Source: a virus (taxonomy: Duplodnaviria; Caudoviricetes). Taken from it: a stretch of 64,000 nt of DNA. Where the stretch lies: the IMG/VR virus record IMGVR_UViG_3300042554_001750, one strand, 5' to 3'. The notes under the pieces were generated by a model, which did not search any database, was not told where the DNA came from, and saw nothing but the letters and a program-made list of their open reading frames with translations. A program made the translations under genes and the position numbers. Of this stretch, positions 5,873 to 36,109 are shown piece after piece; the first letter of the stretch is position 1, and every line of letters begins with the position of its first letter.

Positions 5873-8800
5873 ATGATTATAGGACCCGGTGTAAACATTC
5901 AAAGTGGCGTGAACATGGTAGTGCCACAGGACCAATTCTTTGCCAACGAAACACTATTGTTGAGCTATGGACCCAATGTTGCCCCGGCTGGTGATGCACA
6001 GAGTTTTACACAAGATGCCAGCACTAACAATTTCGCAGTCACAATCAATGGTGACGCCAAAAACGAAACATTCAGCCCATTCTGGCCTGATGGGTATTGG
6101 AGTAATTATTTTGATGGTGCCGGGGATTGTTTAACAGTTCCTTCAAACGCAACTTTTGCTTTTGGCACAGGCAATTTTACGATAGAATGTTGGGTGTATC
6201 TATCTGCTTATAATGGCACTTACGGTAGTCAAATTTTTGGAGGCCATAATTATGGTGTTGGTGCAGATTTAATTTTCATGGTAAATACAACAGGAAAATT
6301 ATATTTTCAGATATCTGGAAGTTCTACTGGCGCGATAACATCAACATCATCAGTATCTCTTAATACATGGACACATGTTGCTGTAGTCAGAAGTGGAGGA
6401 ACGGTCACACCTTACATAAACGGCACCAACGCAGGAGGAGGTGCATCATATACTACCTCAATATCAAGCACTATAAATCCAGGTATTGGATCTAGCTCTA
6501 ATAATAATAATGCTGCCGCTCTGACTGGATACATTTCAAATTTGCGTGTAGTAAACGGCACCGCAGTTTACACTTCAGCATTTACTACACCCACTGCCCC
6601 ACTAACTGCCATCACAAACACCAGCTTGCTAACATGTCAGAGCAATCGGTTTATTGACAATAGTACTAATAATTTCGCTATTACTGTCAATGGTAATACC
6701 TCAGTCACAGTCACAGAACCCTTTGGATTCAGACTGGGTACTGTTACTGCCACAGTACCCAACTCTAGCGCTGTCACTAGTGGATACAGTAGTACAGCGT
6801 TTAATGGTACTAGTGATTATCTTGTAAATACCACCATCTCAAACCCCCTGTATAACTTATCTTCTGGCAGTTGGACCGTTGAAGCCTGGATATATAAAAC
6901 TGCAAGTGGTGCGGCATCAATTTTGACTTTGGTTAATGCCGCCGGAAACAATAGCGGGTTGAGTTTTTATGTAAATGCCTCTAATCAGTTAGCACAGGAT
7001 AACGGTGTTACTGGAACCACTGCTGCTGGAACGATCCCCTTGAACACTTGGACTCATGTGGCTGCTGTGTGCAATGGCACAAACACAACATTATACATTA
7101 ATGGTGCGAGTGTGGGTAGTGCCATTACTCAACTCCCTAACACAGCGCAATTTATTTATTTGGGTTCTACAGCCACTCCTAACCAATTTTTTCCTGGATA
7201 CATTAGTAATCTCAGAATTACCCGGGGAGTAGCAGTTTACACCGGTAACTTCACTGTACCCACAGCACCATTAGGTTTGACACAAAGCGCCGGTACAAAT
7301 ATAAGTGCGATCACCACTGGTCAAACTGTATTCCTGCTTAACGGCACAACTTACGGGAATAACAAAAACTATATTGACAGTAGTACTAATAATTTTTCTG
7401 TCACATTGAACGGTAATCCCTCACAAATTCCACTCACGCCGTTCTATGGCACTAACTACGGCATGCAGGTCACCACAAGTGATAGCATTGCTGTTCCCAA
7501 CATAAACTTTGCTAGTAACAATTTTACAATTGAAGGCTGGTACTATTTTACTGGTACGACTTTTGCTGTAGGAAGTCCCGCATTAACTAATTTCTGGGGA
7601 ACAACGAACGGCACTGGCGCAGTCCCTAAATTAATATTGAGTGCAGACGCTACCAATTTGACTCTTTTACAAACTAGCACAAACATTGTTCAAAATGCTC
7701 ATGGCATGGTACCTAATCGTTGGTATCATGTGGCAGTGGTAAGAACAGGTACAGGAGCCAATCAGGTATTTATATATATTAACGGCACTGCCATAAACAC
7801 TACTTCAACAGCACTGGGATCATTATCAGGTATAACCGGGGTTTTTAACATAGGTTTTGCCGGTGAAGCGTACGGAACCAGATTTCAGGGCTACATCAGT
7901 AATTTCCGAATGGTAAACGGCACCGCACTTTATACCAGTGCTTTCACACCATCTACTACACCCCTGACTAATATCAGTAATACATTCTTATTAACCTGTC
8001 AAAGTAGTAGATTCGTTGACAATAGTAATTTTGGCGCCACAATCACGCGCACTGGCAATCCCGCAATATCTCAATTTATACCATTCAATGTCACATATAG
8101 TGCGGCTCTTTATGGTGGCAGTATGTACTGTGCAGCAACAAGTGACTTTGTGAGTTTCGCACCAGCCGGCACCGACTCATTTGGTACCGGTAATTTTACA
8201 GTTGAATGCTGGTTAAATCCACTGGCTGCTACAGCAGTAAACTTGAGTTTGCCCAGCGCCAACACAAACACTTGGGGATTTCTTACATTCAGTGGTCAAT
8301 TGTATTGGCAAGAAAACGGAAGCAATCTAGGAGGTGGCGGATTTGGCTCAGTAATTCAACAGGCCTGGAATCATTTAGCAGTATGTCGTTCAGGCACAAC
8401 CATCAGATGGTTTGTAAATGGCATACAAGTCAACAGTGCCACAAACAGTTTCAACTACAGCGGAGCACCGGCCACCAGAAACATTGGTCCAGGATCAGGT
8501 GGCAGTGCACCGGCAATAATATCTAACTTTAGAATTGTAAGAGGCACTGCGTTATATACCGCATCGTTCACACCACCCTCAATACCATTAACAGCGGTAA
8601 CCAACACCAGCTTGTTATTAAATACCAACAATGTGAACACTTACGACTTGACATTGAGCAATCCTGTTACCAATGTGAGTGGCGCCAGTCAGAGCACACG
8701 CCAGCCATTTACTGTTCCTACTACTGGAATTACATACTCGGGCGTATCTACATTCGGCAGTGCTTACTTTGATGGTACTGGTGATTATCTAAATAATATT

Positions 8801-25103: not shown

Positions 25104-25132
25104 TTGACAACTATTCAAAATACAGTTACACT
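25104..25132 (+). promoter_or_regulatory. sigma70-type promoter at the entrance of the tRNA region
   Basis: TTGACA-17 nt-TACACT; followed by hairpin AAAACACGCA/TGCGTGTTTT and a TAAATA at 25183. Confidence 0.8.
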
Positions 25133-25366: not shown

Positions 25367-25398
25367 AACTAAAAAGTCCCAGGGGTTCTTACTTTATT
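25356..25398 (+). terminator. Intrinsic terminator (attenuator)
   Basis: CCCCTGGGA/TCCCAGGGG stem with a 10-nt loop, followed by TTCTTACTTTATTT. Confidence 0.7.
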
Positions 25399-25407
25399 TG
25401 ACAGAAA

Positions 25408-25569
25408 ATGGAAAAACAGATACAGTACGAAAAATTGAAATTTACAGATTGGTCAAGGCATGTGACATTGACACCCGAACAACGAAATAAATTGATTCAG
25501 GAAAAGATTGAACGAGCCAAGATTCAATATCTGGCTACGCAGAAGTTACCTTTAAAAGTAACTCAGTAG
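25408..25569 (+). CDS. Small hypothetical protein (53 aa)
   Basis: MEKQIQYEKLKFTDWSRHVTLTPEQRNKLIQEKIERAKIQYLATQKLPLKVTQ. Confidence 0.5.
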   Translation: MEKQIQYEKLKFTDWSRHVTLTPEQRNKLIQEKIERAKIQYLATQKLPLKVTQ

Positions 25570-25872: not shown

Positions 25873-25947
25873 GCCTCATTAGCTCAGTGGTAGAGCAATC
25901 GCTTGATAAGCGATAGGTCCGTGGATCGTTCCCACGATGAGGCACCA
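25873..25947 (+). tRNA. tRNA-Ile(GAT)
   Basis: ATCGC-TTGATAA-GCGAT; CCA. Confidence 0.92.
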
Positions 25948-25952
25948 GTTTT

Positions 25953-26016
25953 AGGATACTAACAGCAAATTTTATACATTAGACTTTTAATCTAAACCGT
26001 AAAAATGTATCCTGTT
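25953..26016 (+). ncRNA. ACAGCAA-family RNA 1 (Lys-UUU anticodon-arm mimic)
   Basis: AGGATAC/GTATCCT stem, TA-ACAGCAA, TTAGA-CTTTTAA-TCTAA hairpin, no T-arm, GTT tail. Confidence 0.65.
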
Positions 26017-26025
26017 ATTTTCAAT

Positions 26026-26101
26026 GGTGCTCTTAGTGTAGTGGTCTGCACACCATGTTGTGACCTTGGTAGTATGAGTTCAATCCTCATAGAGTACCCC
26101 A
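26026..26101 (+). tRNA. tRNA-His(GTG)
   Basis: G-1 encoded, C73; CCATG-TTGTGAC-CTTGG; CCA. Confidence 0.9.
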
Positions 26102-26392: not shown

Positions 26393-27022
26393 ATGCAATC
26401 AGTTCCTAGAATTTCTTTAGCATGTGGACCTGCTGATGATGTTAGAACATTTAATTTGAAATTACCTTTCTTACAAAGAAGAATTGGTGTTCTAGTCAGC
26501 GGCGGATTAGATAGTGCGTTGTTGTATTATTGTTTACGATTAATAGAAAATGAAAACTATACAGTAACGCCTTATACTATCACTAGAAATGATGGTTCTA
26601 GTACACATGCACAACAGGTAATTGATTGTGTGAATAATATTCTTAATAAAAAAACACAGACTACTACAATAGTTACTATATCTGAACAGAATAGCGAATT
26701 ACAAGTTTCTGCAGGTATGAGAGTATTATTCAATACTAATCATAATATATTTTATATTGGATTAATAGAAACATTATCAGAACATGCAATTGGAGTTCCG
26801 AAACCATGGACTCCCGTAGATAGTTTAAGGGTTAATTTTCCCTTTAAGAATTTAAATAAATCACATATTGTTGATTTAATTTATAAATTTGATATTACTG
26901 AATTATTAAACATTACACATAGTTGTGTTTATCCAACAGGTAGATGCAATGTGTGTAATAGATGCAACGAAAGACAATGGGCATTCACTAAATTAGGTTT
27001 AGTGGATCCCGGCACCAGTTAG
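26393..27022 (+). CDS. QueC-like PP-loop ATPase
   Basis: VLVSGGLDS PP-loop; P..NLNKSHIV; THSC...CNVCNRC zinc site. Confidence 0.78.
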   Translation: MQSVPRISLACGPADDVRTFNLKLPFLQRRIGVLVSGGLDSALLYYCLRLIENENYTVTPYTITRNDGSSTHAQQVIDCVNNILNKKTQTTTIVTISEQNSELQVSAGMRVLFNTNHNIFYIGLIETLSEHAIGVPKPWTPVDSLRVNFPFKNLNKSHIVDLIYKFDITELLNITHSCVYPTGRCNVCNRCNERQWAFTKLGLVDPGTS

Positions 27023-27086
27023 GGATACTTACAGAAAATACTAACCAAACGATAGGTCGTTGGGTCAATCCCACTACTGGACACCA
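27021..27086 (+). pseudogene. Chimeric remnant: 5' end of an ACAGCAA-type RNA fused to a tRNA 3' half
   Basis: GGATAC-TT-ACAGAAA, then a T-arm-like hairpin and ACTGGAC-ACCA with no matching 5' acceptor strand. Confidence 0.5.
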
Positions 27087-27102
27087 ACAGAAAGGAAATA
27101 TC

Positions 27103-30863: not shown

Positions 30864-31442
30864 ATGCCCAGCGTGTTTTTAGTAAGTGATACTCACTTCG
30901 GTCACGCCGGAGTGTGTAGATTTTTGCGTGATGATGGAACCAAACTGCGTCCCTGGGATGACCCCAATGAAATGGACGAAGAAATGGTCAAGCGTTGGAA
31001 CGAAAGAGTAAAGCCTAACGATAAAGTTTATCATTTAGGTGATGTAGTAATTAATCGTAAAGCACTGAACATCCTTCGTAGATTGAACGGGGATAAGGTG
31101 CTTATCAAAGGTAACCACGATATTTTTAAGTTGGAAGATTATACTGACCACTTTAGAGATATTCGTGGCTATCATGTTATGAACGGTATGATTTTAAGTC
31201 ATATCCCTGTCCATGAAGAAAGTTTGGGCCGTTTTGGTGTAAACATTCACGGACATCTTCATGCAAACCGCGTTGTCAAAATCAAGCACAAGGGTGCTAC
31301 ACCTGAAGTTGATCACAGATATCATTGTGTTTGTGTGGAACAAACTGATTTTGCACCTATCTTATTTGAGGATGTGTTAAAGCGAATCAAAGAAGAAGGT
31401 GGCGAAGTTGGCTTTAAAAATGGTAATGGTGTTGTTATGTAA
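30864..31442 (+). CDS. Calcineurin-like metallophosphoesterase
   Basis: SDTHFGH, HLGD, GNHD, SHIP, HGHLH. Confidence 0.92.
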   Translation: MPSVFLVSDTHFGHAGVCRFLRDDGTKLRPWDDPNEMDEEMVKRWNERVKPNDKVYHLGDVVINRKALNILRRLNGDKVLIKGNHDIFKLEDYTDHFRDIRGYHVMNGMILSHIPVHEESLGRFGVNIHGHLHANRVVKIKHKGATPEVDHRYHCVCVEQTDFAPILFEDVLKRIKEEGGEVGFKNGNGVVM

Positions 31443-31511: not shown

Positions 31512-31668
31512 AGGATCGGTACAGCAACATTTACTTTATAGTGAATGGTCTGGGCATAGTATGGTACATGCTGGAGGGACAACCCGTTGAAGGTGTGTAT
31601 TGAAATACTCCGGACGAACTCAGAGTGATGGCCTGAGTATAATAAAAGCAGTCAACAACGATCCTGTT
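31512..31668 (+). ncRNA. ACAGCAA-family RNA 2
   Basis: AGGATCG/CGATCCT stem, GT-ACAGCAA, CATTTAC/GTGAATG, GTCTGG/CCGGAC and ACTCAG/CTGAGT helices, GTT tail. Confidence 0.7.
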
Positions 31669-31676
31669 ATTTTGTT

Positions 31677-31872
31677 AGGATGATGACAGCAATCTAAAAC
31701 AATACTGCCTTGTTTTAGGGAAACCTAAACAGCCTGTTGGGGTTAGCCAACTTTGTGTCTAGTCAAGATACTAGGATCGGTCATGTACGATACATGATAG
31801 GCTTGTGGTACAAACTCCCTTAGTGGTAGGGGGCAAGCAGAAATATAAAATACCCGTATCGGTCATCCTGTT
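31677..31872 (+). ncRNA. ACAGCAA-family RNA 3
   Basis: AGGATGA/TCATCCT stem, TG-ACAGCAA, 10-bp TCTAAAACAA/TTGTTTTAGG, GTTGG/CCAAC, CTAGT/ACTAG, TCATGTA/TACATGA and CTCCCT/AGGGGG hairpins, GTT tail. Confidence 0.7.
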
Positions 31873-31880
31873 AGAATTAG

Positions 31881-31936
31881 TGAATGCTAACAGCAACTTT
31901 TTATTCAAACTTGAAAATTGAAATAAAACGCATTCA
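31881..31936 (+). ncRNA. ACAGCAA-family RNA 4 (abuts the DUF2828 RBS)
   Basis: TGAATGC/GCATTCA stem, TA-ACAGCAA, TTCAA/TTGAA hairpin around CTTGAAA. Confidence 0.65.
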
Positions 31937-31950
31937 GAAAGGAAAATGAA

Positions 31951-33366
31951 ATGAACGCATTTGTAAACGCAGTAGCGAACCAAGAAGCCCGTACCCAAAA
32001 TGGTATGAAGGCTCGTAAGTCTAGTGCTAACGCACTGGTTGATCTGTTCTATAACATCGGTGCAAGCCGTGGTAAGAACATTGTACCTGCTTTTACCTCT
32101 GCCTATGTCCAAGATAAGGACTTGGCATTGCGTATCGCATTGTGGGCCCGCGATGCCCGTAGTGGAGCAGGCGAACGTCAATTGTTCCGTGATATCTTGA
32201 CTCATTTGGAAAAGACTGATCCCGATGCGGCAGTCCGTCTGTTGAACAAGGTACCTGAACTTGGTCGTTTTGATGACTTGTTTGTTTTCAAGTCAAAGGA
32301 CATGAAGGCTAAGGCTTACACTCTGTTGGGTGATAACCTTCGTGTTAAGAATGGTCTTGCGGCTAAGTGGACTCCTCGTAAGGGCCCTGTTGCCCGCGAA
32401 ATCCGTGAGTTCTTCGGCATGAGTCCTAAGAACTACCGTAAGACTTTGGTCTCTATGACCAATGTCGTTGAATCACAAATGTGTGCCAACGACTGGGACA
32501 ACATCAACTTCAGCCATGTTCCCTCACAGGCTGCACGAATCTACAAGAAGGCGTTCAACCGTCATTCTGTTAAGTTCGCAGAGTATGTACAGAAGTTGGT
32601 TAGTGGAGATAAGACTGTCAAGGTTAACGCCGGCGCGATCTATCCTCATGATGTCCTGAAGGGTGTGATCAATGCATATGGTCGTGCGTCTTATGACAAG
32701 ACCGAGTTGGATCACATTGTTGCGCAATGGGATGCATTGCCTAACTATGTTGGTGATGCTAACATCATGCCGCTTGTTGACGTTAGTGGTTCTATGACTT
32801 GCCCTGCAGGTAAGAACACTAACGTTCGTTGCTTGGATGTTTCAGTCTCATTGGGATTGTACTTGGCTGATAAGAACAAGGGTGCGTTCCACGGAACCTT
32901 CTTGACTTTCAGCGAAAAGCCTGAATTGATGACCCTAAAGGGTAACATCGTTCAAAAGGCTGATCAAATGATCAAGTCAACTTGGGGCATGAGTACCAAT
33001 CTACATGCGGCTTTTGACAAGATCCTTAGCACCGCAGTTAAGAATTCTGTTCCTAACAGCGATATGCCAAAGATGTTGTTGATCCTTAGCGATATGCAGT
33101 TCAACCAATGCGTCCGTCATGATGACTCAGCAATGGAAATGATTGAACGCAAGTATCGTGACGCAGGCTACGAAATGCCAGCAGTGGTTTTTTGGAACTT
33201 GAACAGTAGCGACAACGTTCCTGTCAAGTCAGACAAGAGTGGTGCGGCACTTGTGTCAGGGTTCAGCCCAAGCATCATGACTAGTCTGTTGTCAGCAGAC
33301 CCGCTGGAATTCACTCCAGAAGGTATGATGATGAAGACCATCATGGCAGATCGTTACGATTGCTAA
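31951..33366 (+). CDS. DUF2828-type protein (helical TROVE-like N-terminus and vWA C-terminus; Ro60-like layout)
   Basis: DLFY, RDARSGAGER..FR, PELGRFDDL, AAKWTPR, VPS.A, DVSGSM MIDAS, GMSTNL, SDMQF, VFWNL. Confidence 0.82.
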   Translation: MNAFVNAVANQEARTQNGMKARKSSANALVDLFYNIGASRGKNIVPAFTSAYVQDKDLALRIALWARDARSGAGERQLFRDILTHLEKTDPDAAVRLLNKVPELGRFDDLFVFKSKDMKAKAYTLLGDNLRVKNGLAAKWTPRKGPVAREIREFFGMSPKNYRKTLVSMTNVVESQMCANDWDNINFSHVPSQAARIYKKAFNRHSVKFAEYVQKLVSGDKTVKVNAGAIYPHDVLKGVINAYGRASYDKTELDHIVAQWDALPNYVGDANIMPLVDVSGSMTCPAGKNTNVRCLDVSVSLGLYLADKNKGAFHGTFLTFSEKPELMTLKGNIVQKADQMIKSTWGMSTNLHAAFDKILSTAVKNSVPNSDMPKMLLILSDMQFNQCVRHDDSAMEMIERKYRDAGYEMPAVVFWNLNSSDNVPVKSDKSGAALVSGFSPSIMTSLLSADPLEFTPEGMMMKTIMADRYDC

Positions 33367-33426: not shown

Positions 33427-34032
33427 ATGTTTGAAAAATTACAATTAATAAATCCTCATCCTAGCACAGAGTCTATATATGTAGGTGATATTCCTGCTGA
33501 AATTTTTTCAGAAATACAAACTAAGGTCAGTAAACTTCAAAAAAATTTTTTTGCAGTGTCTAAACTAACTTCTATGAATAAAAGTTTAGTTGGTCAAATA
33601 GAAAACTCGGTAAGAATGACTCCTCTACCTAGTTTAGAATCTTTCTTAAAAAACTTCTTTAAAGAAAATATATCAACTAAAGACATTGAAATTCATAGTA
33701 ATTGGGTAAACTTTCAAAAGAAAACAGAATACAATCCCAATCATACTCATACCGGTGACTGGGCATATGTGATATGGGTTAAAATACCCTTTTCATTTAA
33801 TGAAGAGGACATAGCACCCAATTCTATTCATTCAAGCACGAAAACTAATGGAAGATTTGAATTATCCTACATAAATGAAAATCTAGAAGTTACTTCAAAA
33901 AAGCTTGAAGTTGATTCAAAATTTGAAGGAAAATTTATTTTATTCAGATCCAATACACGGCATTGTGTATATCCATTCTATACCTCAGATGACTATAGAA
34001 TTTCTATGGCAGGAAATATTATATTTGTATAA
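33427..34032 (+). CDS. Putative 2OG-Fe(II) oxygenase
   Basis: WVNFQ...YNPNHTH, YVIW, ILFRS...HCVYPF, RISMAGNI. Confidence 0.78.
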   Translation: MFEKLQLINPHPSTESIYVGDIPAEIFSEIQTKVSKLQKNFFAVSKLTSMNKSLVGQIENSVRMTPLPSLESFLKNFFKENISTKDIEIHSNWVNFQKKTEYNPNHTHTGDWAYVIWVKIPFSFNEEDIAPNSIHSSTKTNGRFELSYINENLEVTSKKLEVDSKFEGKFILFRSNTRHCVYPFYTSDDYRISMAGNIIFV

Positions 34033-34401: not shown

Positions 34402-34478
34402 GGGACGTTAGCTCAGTTGGTAGCAGCACTCGGCTTTTAACCGATAGGTCATTGGTTCGAACCCAATACGTCCTACCA
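34402..34478 (+). tRNA. tRNA-Lys(TTT)
   Basis: CTCGG-CTTTTAA-CCGAT; CCA. Confidence 0.92.
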
Positions 34479-34880: not shown

Positions 34881-34965
34881 GGAGATGAAGCATCAATGGT
34901 GATGCAGTGGACTGTAAATCCGCCGCCTTATGGCACGACTGGTTCGATCCCAGTAATCTCCACCA
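34881..34965 (+). tRNA. tRNA-Tyr(GTA)
   Basis: GTGGA-CTGTAAA-TCCGC; variable arm; CCA. Confidence 0.93.
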
Positions 34966-36033: not shown

Positions 36034-36109
36034 TGCGGCCGAGGGAGACAGTAACCCGCCAGTCTCATAAGCTGGAGATACCTGGTGCGACTCCAGGGGT
36101 TCGCAACCA
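36034..36109 (+). tRNA. tRNA(CAT), initiator-like but atypical
   Basis: TGCGGCC acceptor with one bulged nt on the 3' strand; CCAGT-CTCATAA-GCTGG; TGCGACT T-loop; CCA. Confidence 0.7.

What the first reader, a model, noticed from the sequence alone, without database searches (positions are those of the whole stretch)
25953..26016. Minimal tRNA-Lys(UUU) anticodon mimic without a T-arm
Seen: a 61-nt element with a 7-bp acceptor-like stem, ACAGCAA, and a perfect 5-bp/7-nt anticodon arm (CU-UUU-AA), but no T-arm or CCA. Established: tRNA-Lys(UUU) is the target of PrrC and PARIS AriB. Inference: a decoy for anticodon nucleases or a presented substrate for the DUF2828 protein. RNA 4 of the same family carries CU-UGA-AA, matching tRNA-Ser(UGA).
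Basis: partly seen in the sequence, partly recalled or inferred. Interest (0 to 1): 0.62.

Follow-up and report, generated by a model that had tools for sequence, protein, structure and literature searches.

The report
Phage Y-like RNA showing anticodon arm
A 61-base RNA gene sitting in a tRNA slot of a giant phage's tRNA cluster joins a conserved "handle", which travels with a Ro60-shaped phage protein, to a hairpin built like the anticodon arm of lysine tRNA. It is most likely a small Y-type RNA that displays a fake anticodon arm, possibly as bait for host enzymes that cut tRNAs.

Summary
At 25953-26013 there is a 7-bp closing stem, then UA, then ACAGCAA. After a short second helix comes a 5-bp hairpin whose 7-nt loop equals the phage's own tRNA-Lys(UUU) anticodon loop. 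There is no D arm, T arm or CCA.

- **Position.** It lies 5 nt after tRNA-Ile and 13 nt before tRNA-His, which is a tRNA slot.
- **Family.** It is the smallest of four "clamp + ACAGCAA" RNAs in the window. The other three lie directly upstream of a DUF2828 gene whose model matches Ro60.
- **Anticodon likeness.** Of 179 distinct short handle RNAs from related phages, 49 carry a 5-bp hairpin whose loop is identical to a real tRNA anticodon loop. Shuffles gave 0.5, and 1.6% of other hairpins in the same DNA do so. The loop's flanking positions are much more conserved than the triplet, and the stems covary.
- **Relatives.** RNAs of about 113 nt place the same hairpin where the anticodon arm sits in a rotated, complete tRNA (YrlA topology).

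So "anticodon-arm mimic" is supported. The decoy function and binding by the Ro60-like protein remain inferred. The claim about RNA 4 holds only in part. The scan has already met this handle family in at least 114 other genomes. The new points here are the statistics on the anticodon-arm cargo and cultured phages that carry it (Pseudomonas phage Milchi, Felix O1-like phages).

The parts
25873..25947 (+). tRNA-Ile(GAU), upstream neighbour; ends 5 nt before the element
   Evidence: ARAGORN and Rfam
25953..25959 (+). 5' strand of the 7-bp clamp (acceptor-like closing stem)
   Evidence: Sequence. In loci anchored on DUF2828, 218 of 303 ACAGCAA sites on the gene strand have a perfect clamp at this fixed offset, against 7-13% at control offsets. 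Covariation is shown.
25960..25968 (+). UA plus the invariant ACAGCAA, the unpaired part of the handle
   Evidence: invariant in alignment A1
25970..25977 (+). 5' strand of the second helix (pairs with 25999-26005, A25974 bulged)
   Evidence: MFE fold; UAC/GUA changes to AAC/GUU in orthologues
25979..25995 (+). Anticodon-arm look-alike: 5-bp stem and 7-nt loop, triplet UUU at 25986-25988
   Evidence: The loop is identical to that of the phage's tRNA-Lys(UUU) at 34402-34478. Enrichment tests are and stem covariation.
25999..26005 (+). 3' strand of the second helix
26007..26013 (+). 3' strand of the clamp
26014..26017 (+). Conserved 3' tail (G, then mostly UU), in the place of discriminator plus CCA
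   Evidence: The commonest tails across the family are GUUA, GUUU and GUAA
26027..26101 (+). tRNA-His, downstream neighbour; its RNase P site would free the element's 3' side
   Evidence: the processing step is inferred
25398..25426 (+). Nearest upstream promoter-like site (another at 25104-25132); no + strand terminator-like site before the element
   Evidence: consensus scan only
31512..31665 (+). Family member, 154 nt, same handle
31677..31869 (+). Family member, 193 nt, same handle
31881..31936 (+). Family member, 56 nt ('RNA 4'), just before the ribosome-binding site of the DUF2828 gene
   Evidence: model R1 gives 42 bits
31951..33366 (+). DUF2828/DUF7788 protein, predicted Ro60-like ring plus vWA domain; presumed partner of the handle
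   Evidence: Pfam; PHROG 850 'RNA-binding protein'; AF2 model and Foldseek, with the top 13 PDB matches all Ro60/TROVE

Best explanation
The element is a small non-coding RNA of about 61-65 nt. It is transcribed with the tRNA array and released from a tRNA slot when its neighbours are processed. It belongs to the 'clamp + ACAGCAA' handle family that travels with the phage's Ro60-like (DUF2828) protein, and it works like a Y RNA. The handle is the docking site for the Ro60-like ring. The rest of the RNA is cargo, and here the cargo is reduced to one module: a hairpin built like a tRNA anticodon arm carrying the tRNA-Lys(UUU) loop. The particle therefore displays a false anticodon arm. It most probably engages a factor that recognises anticodon loops, above all a host anticodon nuclease, acting as decoy or tether. 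Shown: the anatomy, family membership, the anticodon-loop signature, placement in a tRNA slot, the Ro60-like fold of the protein, and co-occurrence of handle and protein. Inferred: that the RNA is stable, that the protein binds the handle, and what the displayed arm engages.
For: (1) Handle. ACAGCAA is 5.6 times commoner on the gene strand, and 72% of sites have a perfect 7-bp clamp at a fixed offset against 7-13% at control offsets. The clamp covaries.
(2) Partner. Three handle RNAs abut the DUF2828 gene. Its model matches Ro60 over its full length (E down to 5.5e-9, TM 0.5-0.58). Four of five contigs that had elements but no DUF2828 gene in the stretch held carry the gene elsewhere. The same handle lies beside DUF2828 genes in Citrobacter, Felix O1-like, Pseudomonas and Mycobacterium phages.
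(3) Anticodon likeness. 85 of 179 short elements have a 5-bp/7-nt hairpin (shuffles 26.6). 50 have Y32-U33-R37-A38 (shuffles 1.6, maximum 5). 49 have loops identical to real anticodon loops (shuffles 0.5, maximum 4), against 1.6% of other such hairpins in the same loci. A 7-nt loop is the preferred size, and A is avoided at position 34, as it is in the real tRNAs of these loci. Nine different stems carry the Lys loop.
(4) Homology of position. In relatives of about 113 nt the same hairpin is followed by a 5-nt variable loop, T arm, closed acceptor hairpin, UA and D arm. That is the anticodon arm of a rotated tRNA.
(5) Slot. 29 of 56 elements with such a hairpin start 1-6 nt after a tRNA, and 29 end within 30 nt of the next one, mostly 5-13 nt.
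(6) Literature. AriB cleaves tRNA-Lys and phage T5 answers with an altered tRNA-Lys (PMC11455837). The Ro60-like gp130 of Bas63, next to its tRNAs, counters a defence system (PMC11482910).
Against: - There are no expression, processing or binding data.
- The fold is thermodynamically unremarkable (z -1.56).
- The element lies 5.9 kb from the DUF2828 gene.
- Only about a quarter of short family members have an anticodon-like loop. The minimal RNAs of the mycobacteriophage, most copies in Milchi, and the RNAs just upstream of the DUF2828 gene do not. The Felix O1-like copy has A at position 33.
- The stems are AU-rich, whereas real anticodon stems in these phages are 60% GC.
- Several anticodon nucleases depend on base modifications that this RNA may lack (my knowledge).
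- The sequences compared are related, so the counts are not independent events.
- No RtcB, Rnl2 or Rnl1 ligase was found in five related contigs. This removes a repair context but says nothing against a decoy.
Confidence: 0.55

Rival explanations
1. Evolutionary relic. The RNA is a handle-only Y RNA (YrlB-like) whose job needs only the handle. The hairpin is what was left when a rotated tRNA-like Y RNA lost its T, acceptor and D modules, and it looks like an anticodon arm by descent, not by present use.
For: Relatives of about 113 nt hold a complete rotated tRNA with the hairpin in the anticodon-arm position, and they share the flanking linkers with the minimal form. Many minimal members have loops that are not anticodon-like.
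Against: Loop positions 32, 33, 37 and 38 are far better kept than the triplet, and the Lys loop persists on nine different covarying stems. That is purifying selection on the loop itself. A relic should drift at all seven positions.
Confidence: 0.15
2. Bait or sponge for anticodon-loop modification enzymes (t6A37, i6A37 or wobble-uridine pathways), or a modified RNA in its own right, and not a nuclease decoy.
For: Nearly all the triplets end in U or A and are followed by AA. These are the loop contexts of t6A and i6A substrates (my knowledge). YrlA is modified by tRNA enzymes (PMC4201824).
Against: The inner sequence is 77% A+T, so U or A at position 36 is barely above expectation. No benefit to the phage is evident.
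Confidence: 0.1
3. RNA-RNA recognition loop. The U-turn loop pairs with a complementary loop or codon-like sequence (for example another tRNA's anticodon, or an mRNA), as in antisense kissing complexes. It acts as a tRNA sponge or a regulator.
For: A 7-nt loop with a U at the second position is the classic fast-pairing scaffold (my knowledge). The triplet varies between orthologous slots: UUU, UCU and GCU after tRNA-Ile.
Against: No complementary partner was sought or seen. Identity to whole 7-nt anticodon loops, including positions 32, 37 and 38, is not needed for pairing.
Confidence: 0.08
4. A working minimal ('armless') tRNA-Lys used in translation.
For: It has a 7-bp acceptor-like stem, a tRNA slot, an anticodon arm, and a loop at positions 32-38 counted from the first clamp base.
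Against: There is no CCA, while the phage's real tRNAs encode it. There are no D or T arms. ARAGORN finds nothing on this strand even in mitochondrial mode. The phage already has a normal tRNA-Lys(UUU). The same handle occurs on RNAs of 150-280 nt.
Confidence: 0.02
5. A DNA-level or processing feature: inverted-repeat mobile element, homing-endonuclease site, or merely a spacer hairpin that guides tRNA processing.
For: It lies in an array rich in HNH endonuclease genes. A partial duplicate of its start lies at 27011-27045.
Against: The motif is strongly strand-specific (303 against 54). G-U pairs work only on the + strand. The asymmetric ACAGCAA and the variable cargo do not fit terminal inverted repeats. 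Most tRNA junctions in the array do without it.
Confidence: 0.03

Closest known systems
YrlA / YrlB Y RNAs with Rsr (Ro60) in bacteria and mycobacteriophages (Rfam RF02553; Chen et al. 2014, PMC4201824)
   Same: These are small RNAs encoded on the same strand as a Ro60-type protein, with a closing stem and a conserved 5'-side motif as the presumed docking site, plus cargo that mimics tRNA. The larger relatives here have exactly the YrlA order: hairpin, T arm, closed acceptor hairpin, D arm. One lies beside the Ro-like gene of a mycobacteriophage and gives a weak YrlA hit. Like YrlB, this element lacks the T and D domains.
   Different: No Rfam hit. The motif is ACAGCAA, not GNCGAA. The partner is a DUF2828 protein that matches no TROVE Pfam model. 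The cargo is an anticodon arm, the one part of tRNA that YrlA was not described as mimicking. The gene sits in a tRNA slot 5.9 kb from the protein gene.
Dictyostelium Class I RNAs (Kjellin et al. 2021, PMC7919456)
   Same: They are 42-65 nt long, with a short stem joining the two ends and an 11-nt motif next to the 5' stem in which T3, C6, C9, A10 and A11 are conserved. All five fit bases 25958-25968 here. They also have a 3' CUGU, which is present here at 26012-26015. The rest of the RNA is variable. DUF2828 proteins also occur in eukaryotes (Pfam description; my knowledge).
   Different: Those are eukaryotic, polymerase-transcribed genes with their own promoter element. No Ro60-like partner is reported for them. 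No anticodon-like cargo has been described.
Deinococcus radiodurans Yrn1
   Same: A Y RNA that can be drawn with a possible anticodon arm of 5 bp (PMC4201824).
   Different: Its loop has 6 nt and no anticodon-loop signature, and its Ro-binding motif is different.
Phage tRNAs that evade anticodon nucleases (T5 tRNA-Lys against PARIS AriB; van den Berg et al. 2023, cited in PMC11455837)
   Same: A phage answer to tRNA-targeting defence, encoded in the tRNA array and centred on the Lys anticodon arm.
   Different: Those are working tRNAs that replace the cleaved ones. This RNA cannot decode and could at most soak up or tether the attacker.
Stable small RNAs in the phage T4 tRNA cluster (species 1 and 2; my knowledge)
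   Same: Non-tRNA small RNAs co-transcribed and processed with phage tRNAs.
   Different: No sequence or handle relation was tested, and their function is also unknown.

Membership tests
Clamp + ACAGCAA handle RNAs of phage DUF2828 loci (uncatalogued) | Perfect or near-perfect 7-bp closing stem ending 2 nt before ACAGCAA | tested here: met
   25953-25959 pairs with 26007-26013, and ACAGCAA is at 25962-25968. The offset rule holds for 72% of sites against 7-13% at control offsets.
Clamp + ACAGCAA handle RNAs of phage DUF2828 loci (uncatalogued) | G (usually GU) directly after the 3' strand of the clamp | tested here: met
   GUUA at 26014-26017; the commonest family tails are GUUA, GUUU and GUAA
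Clamp + ACAGCAA handle RNAs of phage DUF2828 loci (uncatalogued) | Same genome and same strand as a DUF2828 (Ro60-like) gene | tested here: met
   The gene is at 31951-33366 on the + strand. Four of five further contigs carry the gene away from the elements.
YrlA (Rfam RF02553) | Covariance-model match at the gathering score | tested here: not met
   No match even at E up to 10
YrlA (Rfam RF02553) | tRNA-like domain with T arm, closed acceptor hairpin and D arm | tested here: not met
   Absent from this element; present in relatives of 113-126 nt
YrlA (Rfam RF02553) | GNCGAA(N)G motif near the 5' end | tested here: not met
   The motif here is ACAGCAA
YrlA (Rfam RF02553) | Within 4 kb of the Ro60 gene, same strand (criterion of Chen et al. 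2014) | tested here: not met
   Same strand, but 5.9 kb upstream
Y RNA in the functional sense | Bound by a Ro60-family protein | not testable with these tools
   Only the Ro60-like fold of the neighbouring protein and co-occurrence could be shown
Canonical tRNA | Cloverleaf with D and T arms and a 3' CCA or discriminator | tested here: not met
   ARAGORN and Rfam tRNA are silent, and the tail is GUUA
Canonical tRNA | Anticodon arm: 5-bp stem, 7-nt loop, Y32 U33 R37 | tested here: met
   25979-25995; the loop is identical to the phage tRNA-Lys(UUU) loop
Armless or T-armless mitochondrial-type tRNA | Called by a detector tuned to such tRNAs | tested here: not met
   ARAGORN in mitochondrial mode calls nothing on the + strand, only an artefact on the opposite strand
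Dictyostelium Class I RNA | Length 42-65 nt, stem joining the ends, 11-nt motif with T3 C6 C9 A10 A11, 3' CUGU | tested here: met
   Bases 25958-25968 fit all five positions, and CUGU is at 26012-26015, judged against the description in PMC7919456. The full motif is not given in the paper's text.
Dictyostelium Class I RNA | Dictyostelid gene with the DUSE promoter element | tested here: not met
   This is a phage gene inside a tRNA operon. The resemblance is to the RNA, not to the gene family.

The most novel reading that the evidence does not exclude
Phage Ro60-like particles carry a swappable library of false anticodon arms (Lys, Thr, Arg, Ser, Asn, Tyr, Cys, Trp and others). Each arm is matched to a tRNA that some host anticodon nuclease attacks. 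The triplet changes seen at orthologous slots (UUU, UCU, GCU after tRNA-Ile) would then record an arms race in which the phage retargets its decoy with one or two point mutations.
Probability: 0.2. Interest if true: 0.85.

Novelty: new variant of a known kind. Interest (0 to 1): 0.66.

Why it matters
Bacterial and phage Y RNAs are known to imitate the elbow of tRNA (T and D arms), but what the imitation is for remains open. Here the same kind of RNA is stripped down to the other end of tRNA, the anticodon arm. That is the part attacked by many anti-phage nucleases (PrrC, PARIS AriB, retron and toxin-antitoxin nucleases) and by colicins.

If the arm is bait, this is a counter-defence principle distinct from replacement tRNAs. 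It would also give the large, uncharacterised DUF2828 protein family a concrete job.

The idea can be tested directly, because the same RNAs and protein occur in cultured phages: Pseudomonas phage Milchi and Felix O1-like phages. In the Felix O1-like phage Bas63, the Ro60-like gene already shows a defence-related phenotype.

The shared handle may also link these RNAs to the Class I RNAs of Dictyostelium, whose function has been unknown for about twenty years.

Tried and rejected
- **Rfam.** Searches at gathering and at E up to 10 found only tRNAs and chance sub-threshold hits. A weak 'cow-rumen-1' hit at 26999-27095 (E 0.83) was dismissed.
- **Megablast of the region against cultured phages.** Only tRNA fragments matched.
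- **Fetching orthologous slots through the QueC-like gene.** Only 3 distant loci came back, so the gene is not conserved. I used a DNA pattern for the handle instead.
- **Folding energy as evidence.** It is not significant for this element or for the Ci1 copy (z 0.06).
- **MFE-based loop tables.** These were too noisy for AU-rich hairpins and were replaced by explicit stem/loop counting with shuffles.
- **Mimic next to its cognate tRNA.** About five cases, no more than chance.
- **Bias towards U or A at position 36 as a modification signal.** It is not separable from 77% A+T content.
- **Whole-genome search.** No genome is held for this window.
- **Sequence search of the protein against the PDB.** Nothing was found; only the fold search worked.
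- **RNA-repair context.** No RtcB, Rnl2 or Rnl1 in five related contigs (the Rnl1 search had no positive control). The upstream phosphoesterase is only a distant PdeM-like metallophosphoesterase. No ligase appeared among the large ORFs of the window.
- **Armless-tRNA reading.** Rejected.

Full report
**Setting.** The window comes from an uncultured large phage. No cultured phage matches the region beyond tRNA fragments, and no whole genome is held. A cluster of 26-28 tRNA genes on the + strand runs from 25.8 to 36.9 kb. The finding lies between tRNA-Ile(GAU) (25873-25947) and tRNA-His (26027-26101). Two promoter-like sites precede the cluster, and no + strand terminator-like site lies between them and the element, so it should be co-transcribed with the tRNAs.

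**Observation.**
- a perfect 7-bp clamp (25953-25959 with 26007-26013);
- UA, then ACAGCAA (25962-25968);
- a 5-bp hairpin (25979-25983 with 25991-25995) whose 7-nt loop reads C-U-UUU-A-A;
- a GUUA tail, with no D arm, T arm or CCA.

ARAGORN and the Rfam tRNA model do not call it. The MFE fold adds a second helix between handle and hairpin (25970-25977 with 25999-26005). The molecule is therefore a rod of about 19 bp, interrupted by the ACAGCAA internal loop and a small inner loop. Its energy is not remarkable (z -1.56), so everything below rests on comparison.

**The handle family and its protein.** The window holds three more RNAs with the same clamp + NN + ACAGCAA, followed by G after the clamp: 31512-31665, 31677-31869 and 31881-31936. 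They lie head to tail in front of a 471-aa DUF2828/DUF7788 gene.

I fetched 80 loci through that protein. In them, ACAGCAA occurs 303 times on the gene strand and 54 times on the other. 218 of the 303 have a perfect 7-bp clamp at the fixed 2-nt offset, against 7-13% at control offsets. Clamp sequences differ between copies while staying complementary.

An AlphaFold model of the protein (pLDDT 77) gave Ro60/TROVE structures as its 13 best PDB matches. These include a Thermus phage Ro60, Xenopus and human Ro60 and Deinococcus Rsr (E down to 5.5e-9, TM 0.5-0.58, full length). Sequence searches of the PDB and the TROVE Pfam model see nothing.

Homologues of the protein occur in 711 cultured phage records, some annotated 'Ro-like RNA binding protein'. 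I found the same handle beside the gene in four of them:
- Citrobacter phage Ci1 and a Felix O1-like coliphage;
- Pseudomonas phage Milchi, with ACAGCAC;
- Mycobacterium phage GuuelaD, with three copies downstream of the gene.

Of five contigs that held elements but no DUF2828 gene in the stretch fetched, four have the gene elsewhere. None of these RNAs matches an Rfam family. This agrees with the earlier follow-up on this window (e1-5370047) and with many notes from other genomes.

**Is the hairpin an anticodon-arm mimic?** A pattern scan for the handle alone, blind to the cargo, gave 120 more phage stretches. Of these, 101 hold tRNA genes. Together with the first set, this gave 179 distinct short elements (40-72 nt).

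| Test on the 179 short elements | Observed | Control |
|---|---|---|
| Has a 5-bp stem closing a 7-nt loop | 85 | 26.6 ± 4.3 in dinucleotide shuffles |
| Also has Y32, U33, R37, A38 | 50 | 1.6 ± 1.2, maximum 5 |
| Loop identical to a real anticodon loop of tRNAs in the same loci | 49 | 0.5 ± 0.7, maximum 4 |
| Same, as a share of hairpin-bearing elements | 49 of 85 | 1.6% of 29,402 hairpins of this shape elsewhere in the loci; 1.8% in the AT-rich subset |

- Seven is the preferred loop size: 85 elements, against 14-27 for other sizes. The exception is nine (52), which belongs to the RNAs just upstream of the DUF2828 gene.
- With no selection on the loop, position 32 is C in 57% (background 15%) and position 33 is U in 71% (background 32%). 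Positions 37 and 38 are A in about 74% (background 45%).
- Position 34 is A in only 12% (background 45%). The real tRNAs of these loci show the same avoidance, with A in 4%.
- The loops correspond to Lys UUU (16 distinct elements), Thr UGU (6), Cys (5), Tyr (4), Asn, Ser UGA and Ser GCU (3 each), and Lys CUU, Arg UCU and Glu (2 each), among others.
- The Lys loop sits on nine different stems.
- In an alignment of 48 such elements, all five stem pairs show changes on both sides. One pair is AU, GC, CG or UA in 14, 14, 12 and 7 sequences. That alignment was chosen for having the hairpin, so only the covariation counts, not the percentage paired.
- The window's loop is identical to that of its own tRNA-Lys(UUU) at 34402-34478, but the stem is unrelated and AU-rich. 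It is therefore not a tRNA gene fragment.
- The closest orthologues keep the whole architecture. Some carry a compensatory stem change with the same loop. Others have UGU, UCU, GCU, GAU or CUU in place of UUU, with only positions 34 and 35 varying.
- In the syntenic slot after tRNA-Ile, four phages carry UUU, UUU, UCU and GCU.

**Why 'anticodon arm' is the right name.** Handle RNAs of about 113-126 nt in related phages, and in the Felix O1-like phage, read as follows: handle, the same kind of hairpin (with Ile, Arg, Cys or Leu loops), a 5-nt connector like a tRNA variable loop, a canonical T arm, a 7-bp hairpin closed by a tetraloop, UA, a D arm, one base, then the handle again.

That is a complete tRNA written from position 27 round to position 26, with the acceptor ends closed and the handle inserted at the 26/27 junction. 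ARAGORN does not call these RNAs. The topology is that of YrlA, whose authors called the first hairpin a 'V' arm (PMC4201824). One such RNA in the mycobacteriophage gives a weak partial YrlA hit. The minimal element shares the flanking linkers and looks like the same RNA with the connector, T, acceptor and D modules removed. Of the handle RNAs of 73-140 nt, 33 of 78 carry a canonical T arm. Of those up to 72 nt, 51 of 193 carry a hairpin with an anticodon-type loop, and hardly any carry a T arm. The family thus displays different parts of tRNA on one handle.

**A tRNA slot.** Of 56 elements with such a hairpin, 29 begin 1-6 nt after the 3' end of a tRNA on the same strand, and 29 end within 30 nt of the next tRNA, mostly 5-13 nt. 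In the window, tRNA-to-tRNA spacers are 5-6 nt and the element starts 5 nt after tRNA-Ile. If the four tail bases are counted like discriminator plus CCA, the element is spaced as a tRNA would be. Release by the processing of its neighbours (RNase P at tRNA-His, 3' trimming of tRNA-Ile) is an inference.

**Mechanism.** By analogy with Ro60 and Y RNAs, the handle, the only feature common to all these RNAs across very different phages, is the docking site for the Ro60-like ring, and the rest is cargo. Here the cargo is a false anticodon arm.

- The most economical use is to engage something that reads anticodon loops. Host anticodon nucleases are the obvious candidates. AriB of PARIS cuts tRNA-Lys and T5 escapes with an altered tRNA-Lys (PMC11455837). 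PrrC also targets tRNA-Lys (my knowledge).
- The Ro60-like gp130 of the Felix O1-like phage Bas63, which lies next to its tRNA genes, counters a defence system (preprint PMC11482910).
- The predominance of Lys UUU and the presence of several different 'anticodons' per phage fit this reading, but they are not proof.
- I found no RtcB, Rnl2 or Rnl1 ligase in five related contigs, one of them 95% complete. A ligation-based repair platform is therefore not supported in this clade.

**Limits.**
- The sequences compared come largely from one broad group of freshwater phages and are related. The shuffles control for composition, not for descent. The many stems and 13 loop types argue for repeated events, but a tree-based count was not done.
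- Only about a quarter of short members have the signature.
- Nothing is known about expression, stability, modification or binding.

**RNA 4.** The 56-nt RNA at 31881-31936 scores 42 bits with the model built from the elements that carry such a hairpin. Its loop core equals the phage tRNA-Ser(UGA) loop, but it is flanked by an A-A mismatch, which gives a 9-nt loop. Close orthologues have a Thr-like core in the same frame. Most others have 9-nt loops unlike anticodon loops.

**Comparison and novelty.**
- The closest known systems are Rsr/Ro60 with YrlA and YrlB. The topology of the larger relatives and the Ro60-like partner are the same. The docking motif, the Pfam family of the protein, the lack of any Rfam match and the anticodon-arm cargo are different.
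The published description fits bases 25958-25968 and 26012-26015 at every stated position: 42-65 nt, a stem joining the ends, an 11-nt motif with T3, C6, C9, A10 and A11, and a 3' CUGU (PMC7919456). The paper's text does not give the motif in letters, so identity remains a lead.
- I class the finding as a new variant of a known kind: a Y-RNA-like RNA whose cargo is an anticodon arm. My paper searches found no description of it.

Noticed in passing
window 27011-27095: The end of the QueC-like ORF (26393-27022) and the bases after it repeat the last bases of tRNA-Ile plus the start of the element, with a degenerate handle (ACAGAAA). They then continue into what looks like the variable loop, a T-arm-like hairpin and a 3' acceptor strand ending in CACCA. 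This looks like a chimeric remnant of an element and a tRNA, perhaps left by insertion of the QueC-like gene. Model R1 gives it only 16.9 bits.
   Followed up: partly
L192:6093-6205 (-), L095:1836-1949, L169:6439-6553 (-), L050:2231-2345, L205:10392-10517: Handle RNAs of 113-126 nt that contain a whole tRNA in rotated order: anticodon arm, variable loop, T arm, closed acceptor hairpin, D arm. ARAGORN does not see them. The Felix O1-like copy is overlapped by an annotated antisense 'hypothetical protein'.
   Followed up: partly
L206 (Pseudomonas phage Milchi) 8540-9067 and 16804-16859: This cultured phage carries five minimal handle RNAs (handle variant ACAGCAC). Four lie in a row between tRNA genes. 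One has the Lys anticodon loop 9 nt before the phage's tRNA-Lys. One is annotated as a 129-nt 'hypothetical protein' CDS (8655-8783).
   Followed up: partly
L207 (Mycobacterium phage GuuelaD) 3970-4240: Three handle RNAs with exact ACAGCAA lie downstream of the annotated 'Ro-like RNA binding protein'. The middle one holds the T arm, acceptor hairpin and D arm. The handle therefore spans phages of Actinobacteria and Proteobacteria.
   Followed up: partly
window 25960-25965 and 26012-26017 (and the family in general): The conserved ACAG of the motif is complementary to the conserved CUGU that overlaps the 3' end of the clamp. In this element, UAACAG can pair with CUGUUA. This alternative pairing competes with the last clamp pairs. 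The neighbouring positions do not covary consistently, so its meaning is open.
   Followed up: partly
window 25984-25990: Counted from the first clamp base, the loop occupies positions 32-38, the same numbers as in a tRNA. This spacing is not kept in other members (25-33 nt before the loop), so it is probably coincidence.
   Followed up: yes
window 34881-34962 and 36035-36105: The Rfam tRNA model calls two further tRNA-like genes that ARAGORN misses (36.0 and 31.1 bits). The first, at 82 nt, may be the tRNA-Tyr missing from the ARAGORN list.
   Followed up: no
window 30864-31442 and 33427-34032: The RNA-plus-DUF2828 block is flanked by a metallophosphoesterase (PHROG 547, distantly PdeM-like) and a 2OG-Fe(II) oxygenase. 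Whether they belong to the system is unknown.
   Followed up: partly
L204 (Citrobacter phage Ci1) 2389-2505: An annotated 'hypothetical protein' CDS lies inside a 137-nt handle RNA (2402-2538) between tRNA-Pro and tRNA-Asn. It is probably a mis-annotation.
   Followed up: no
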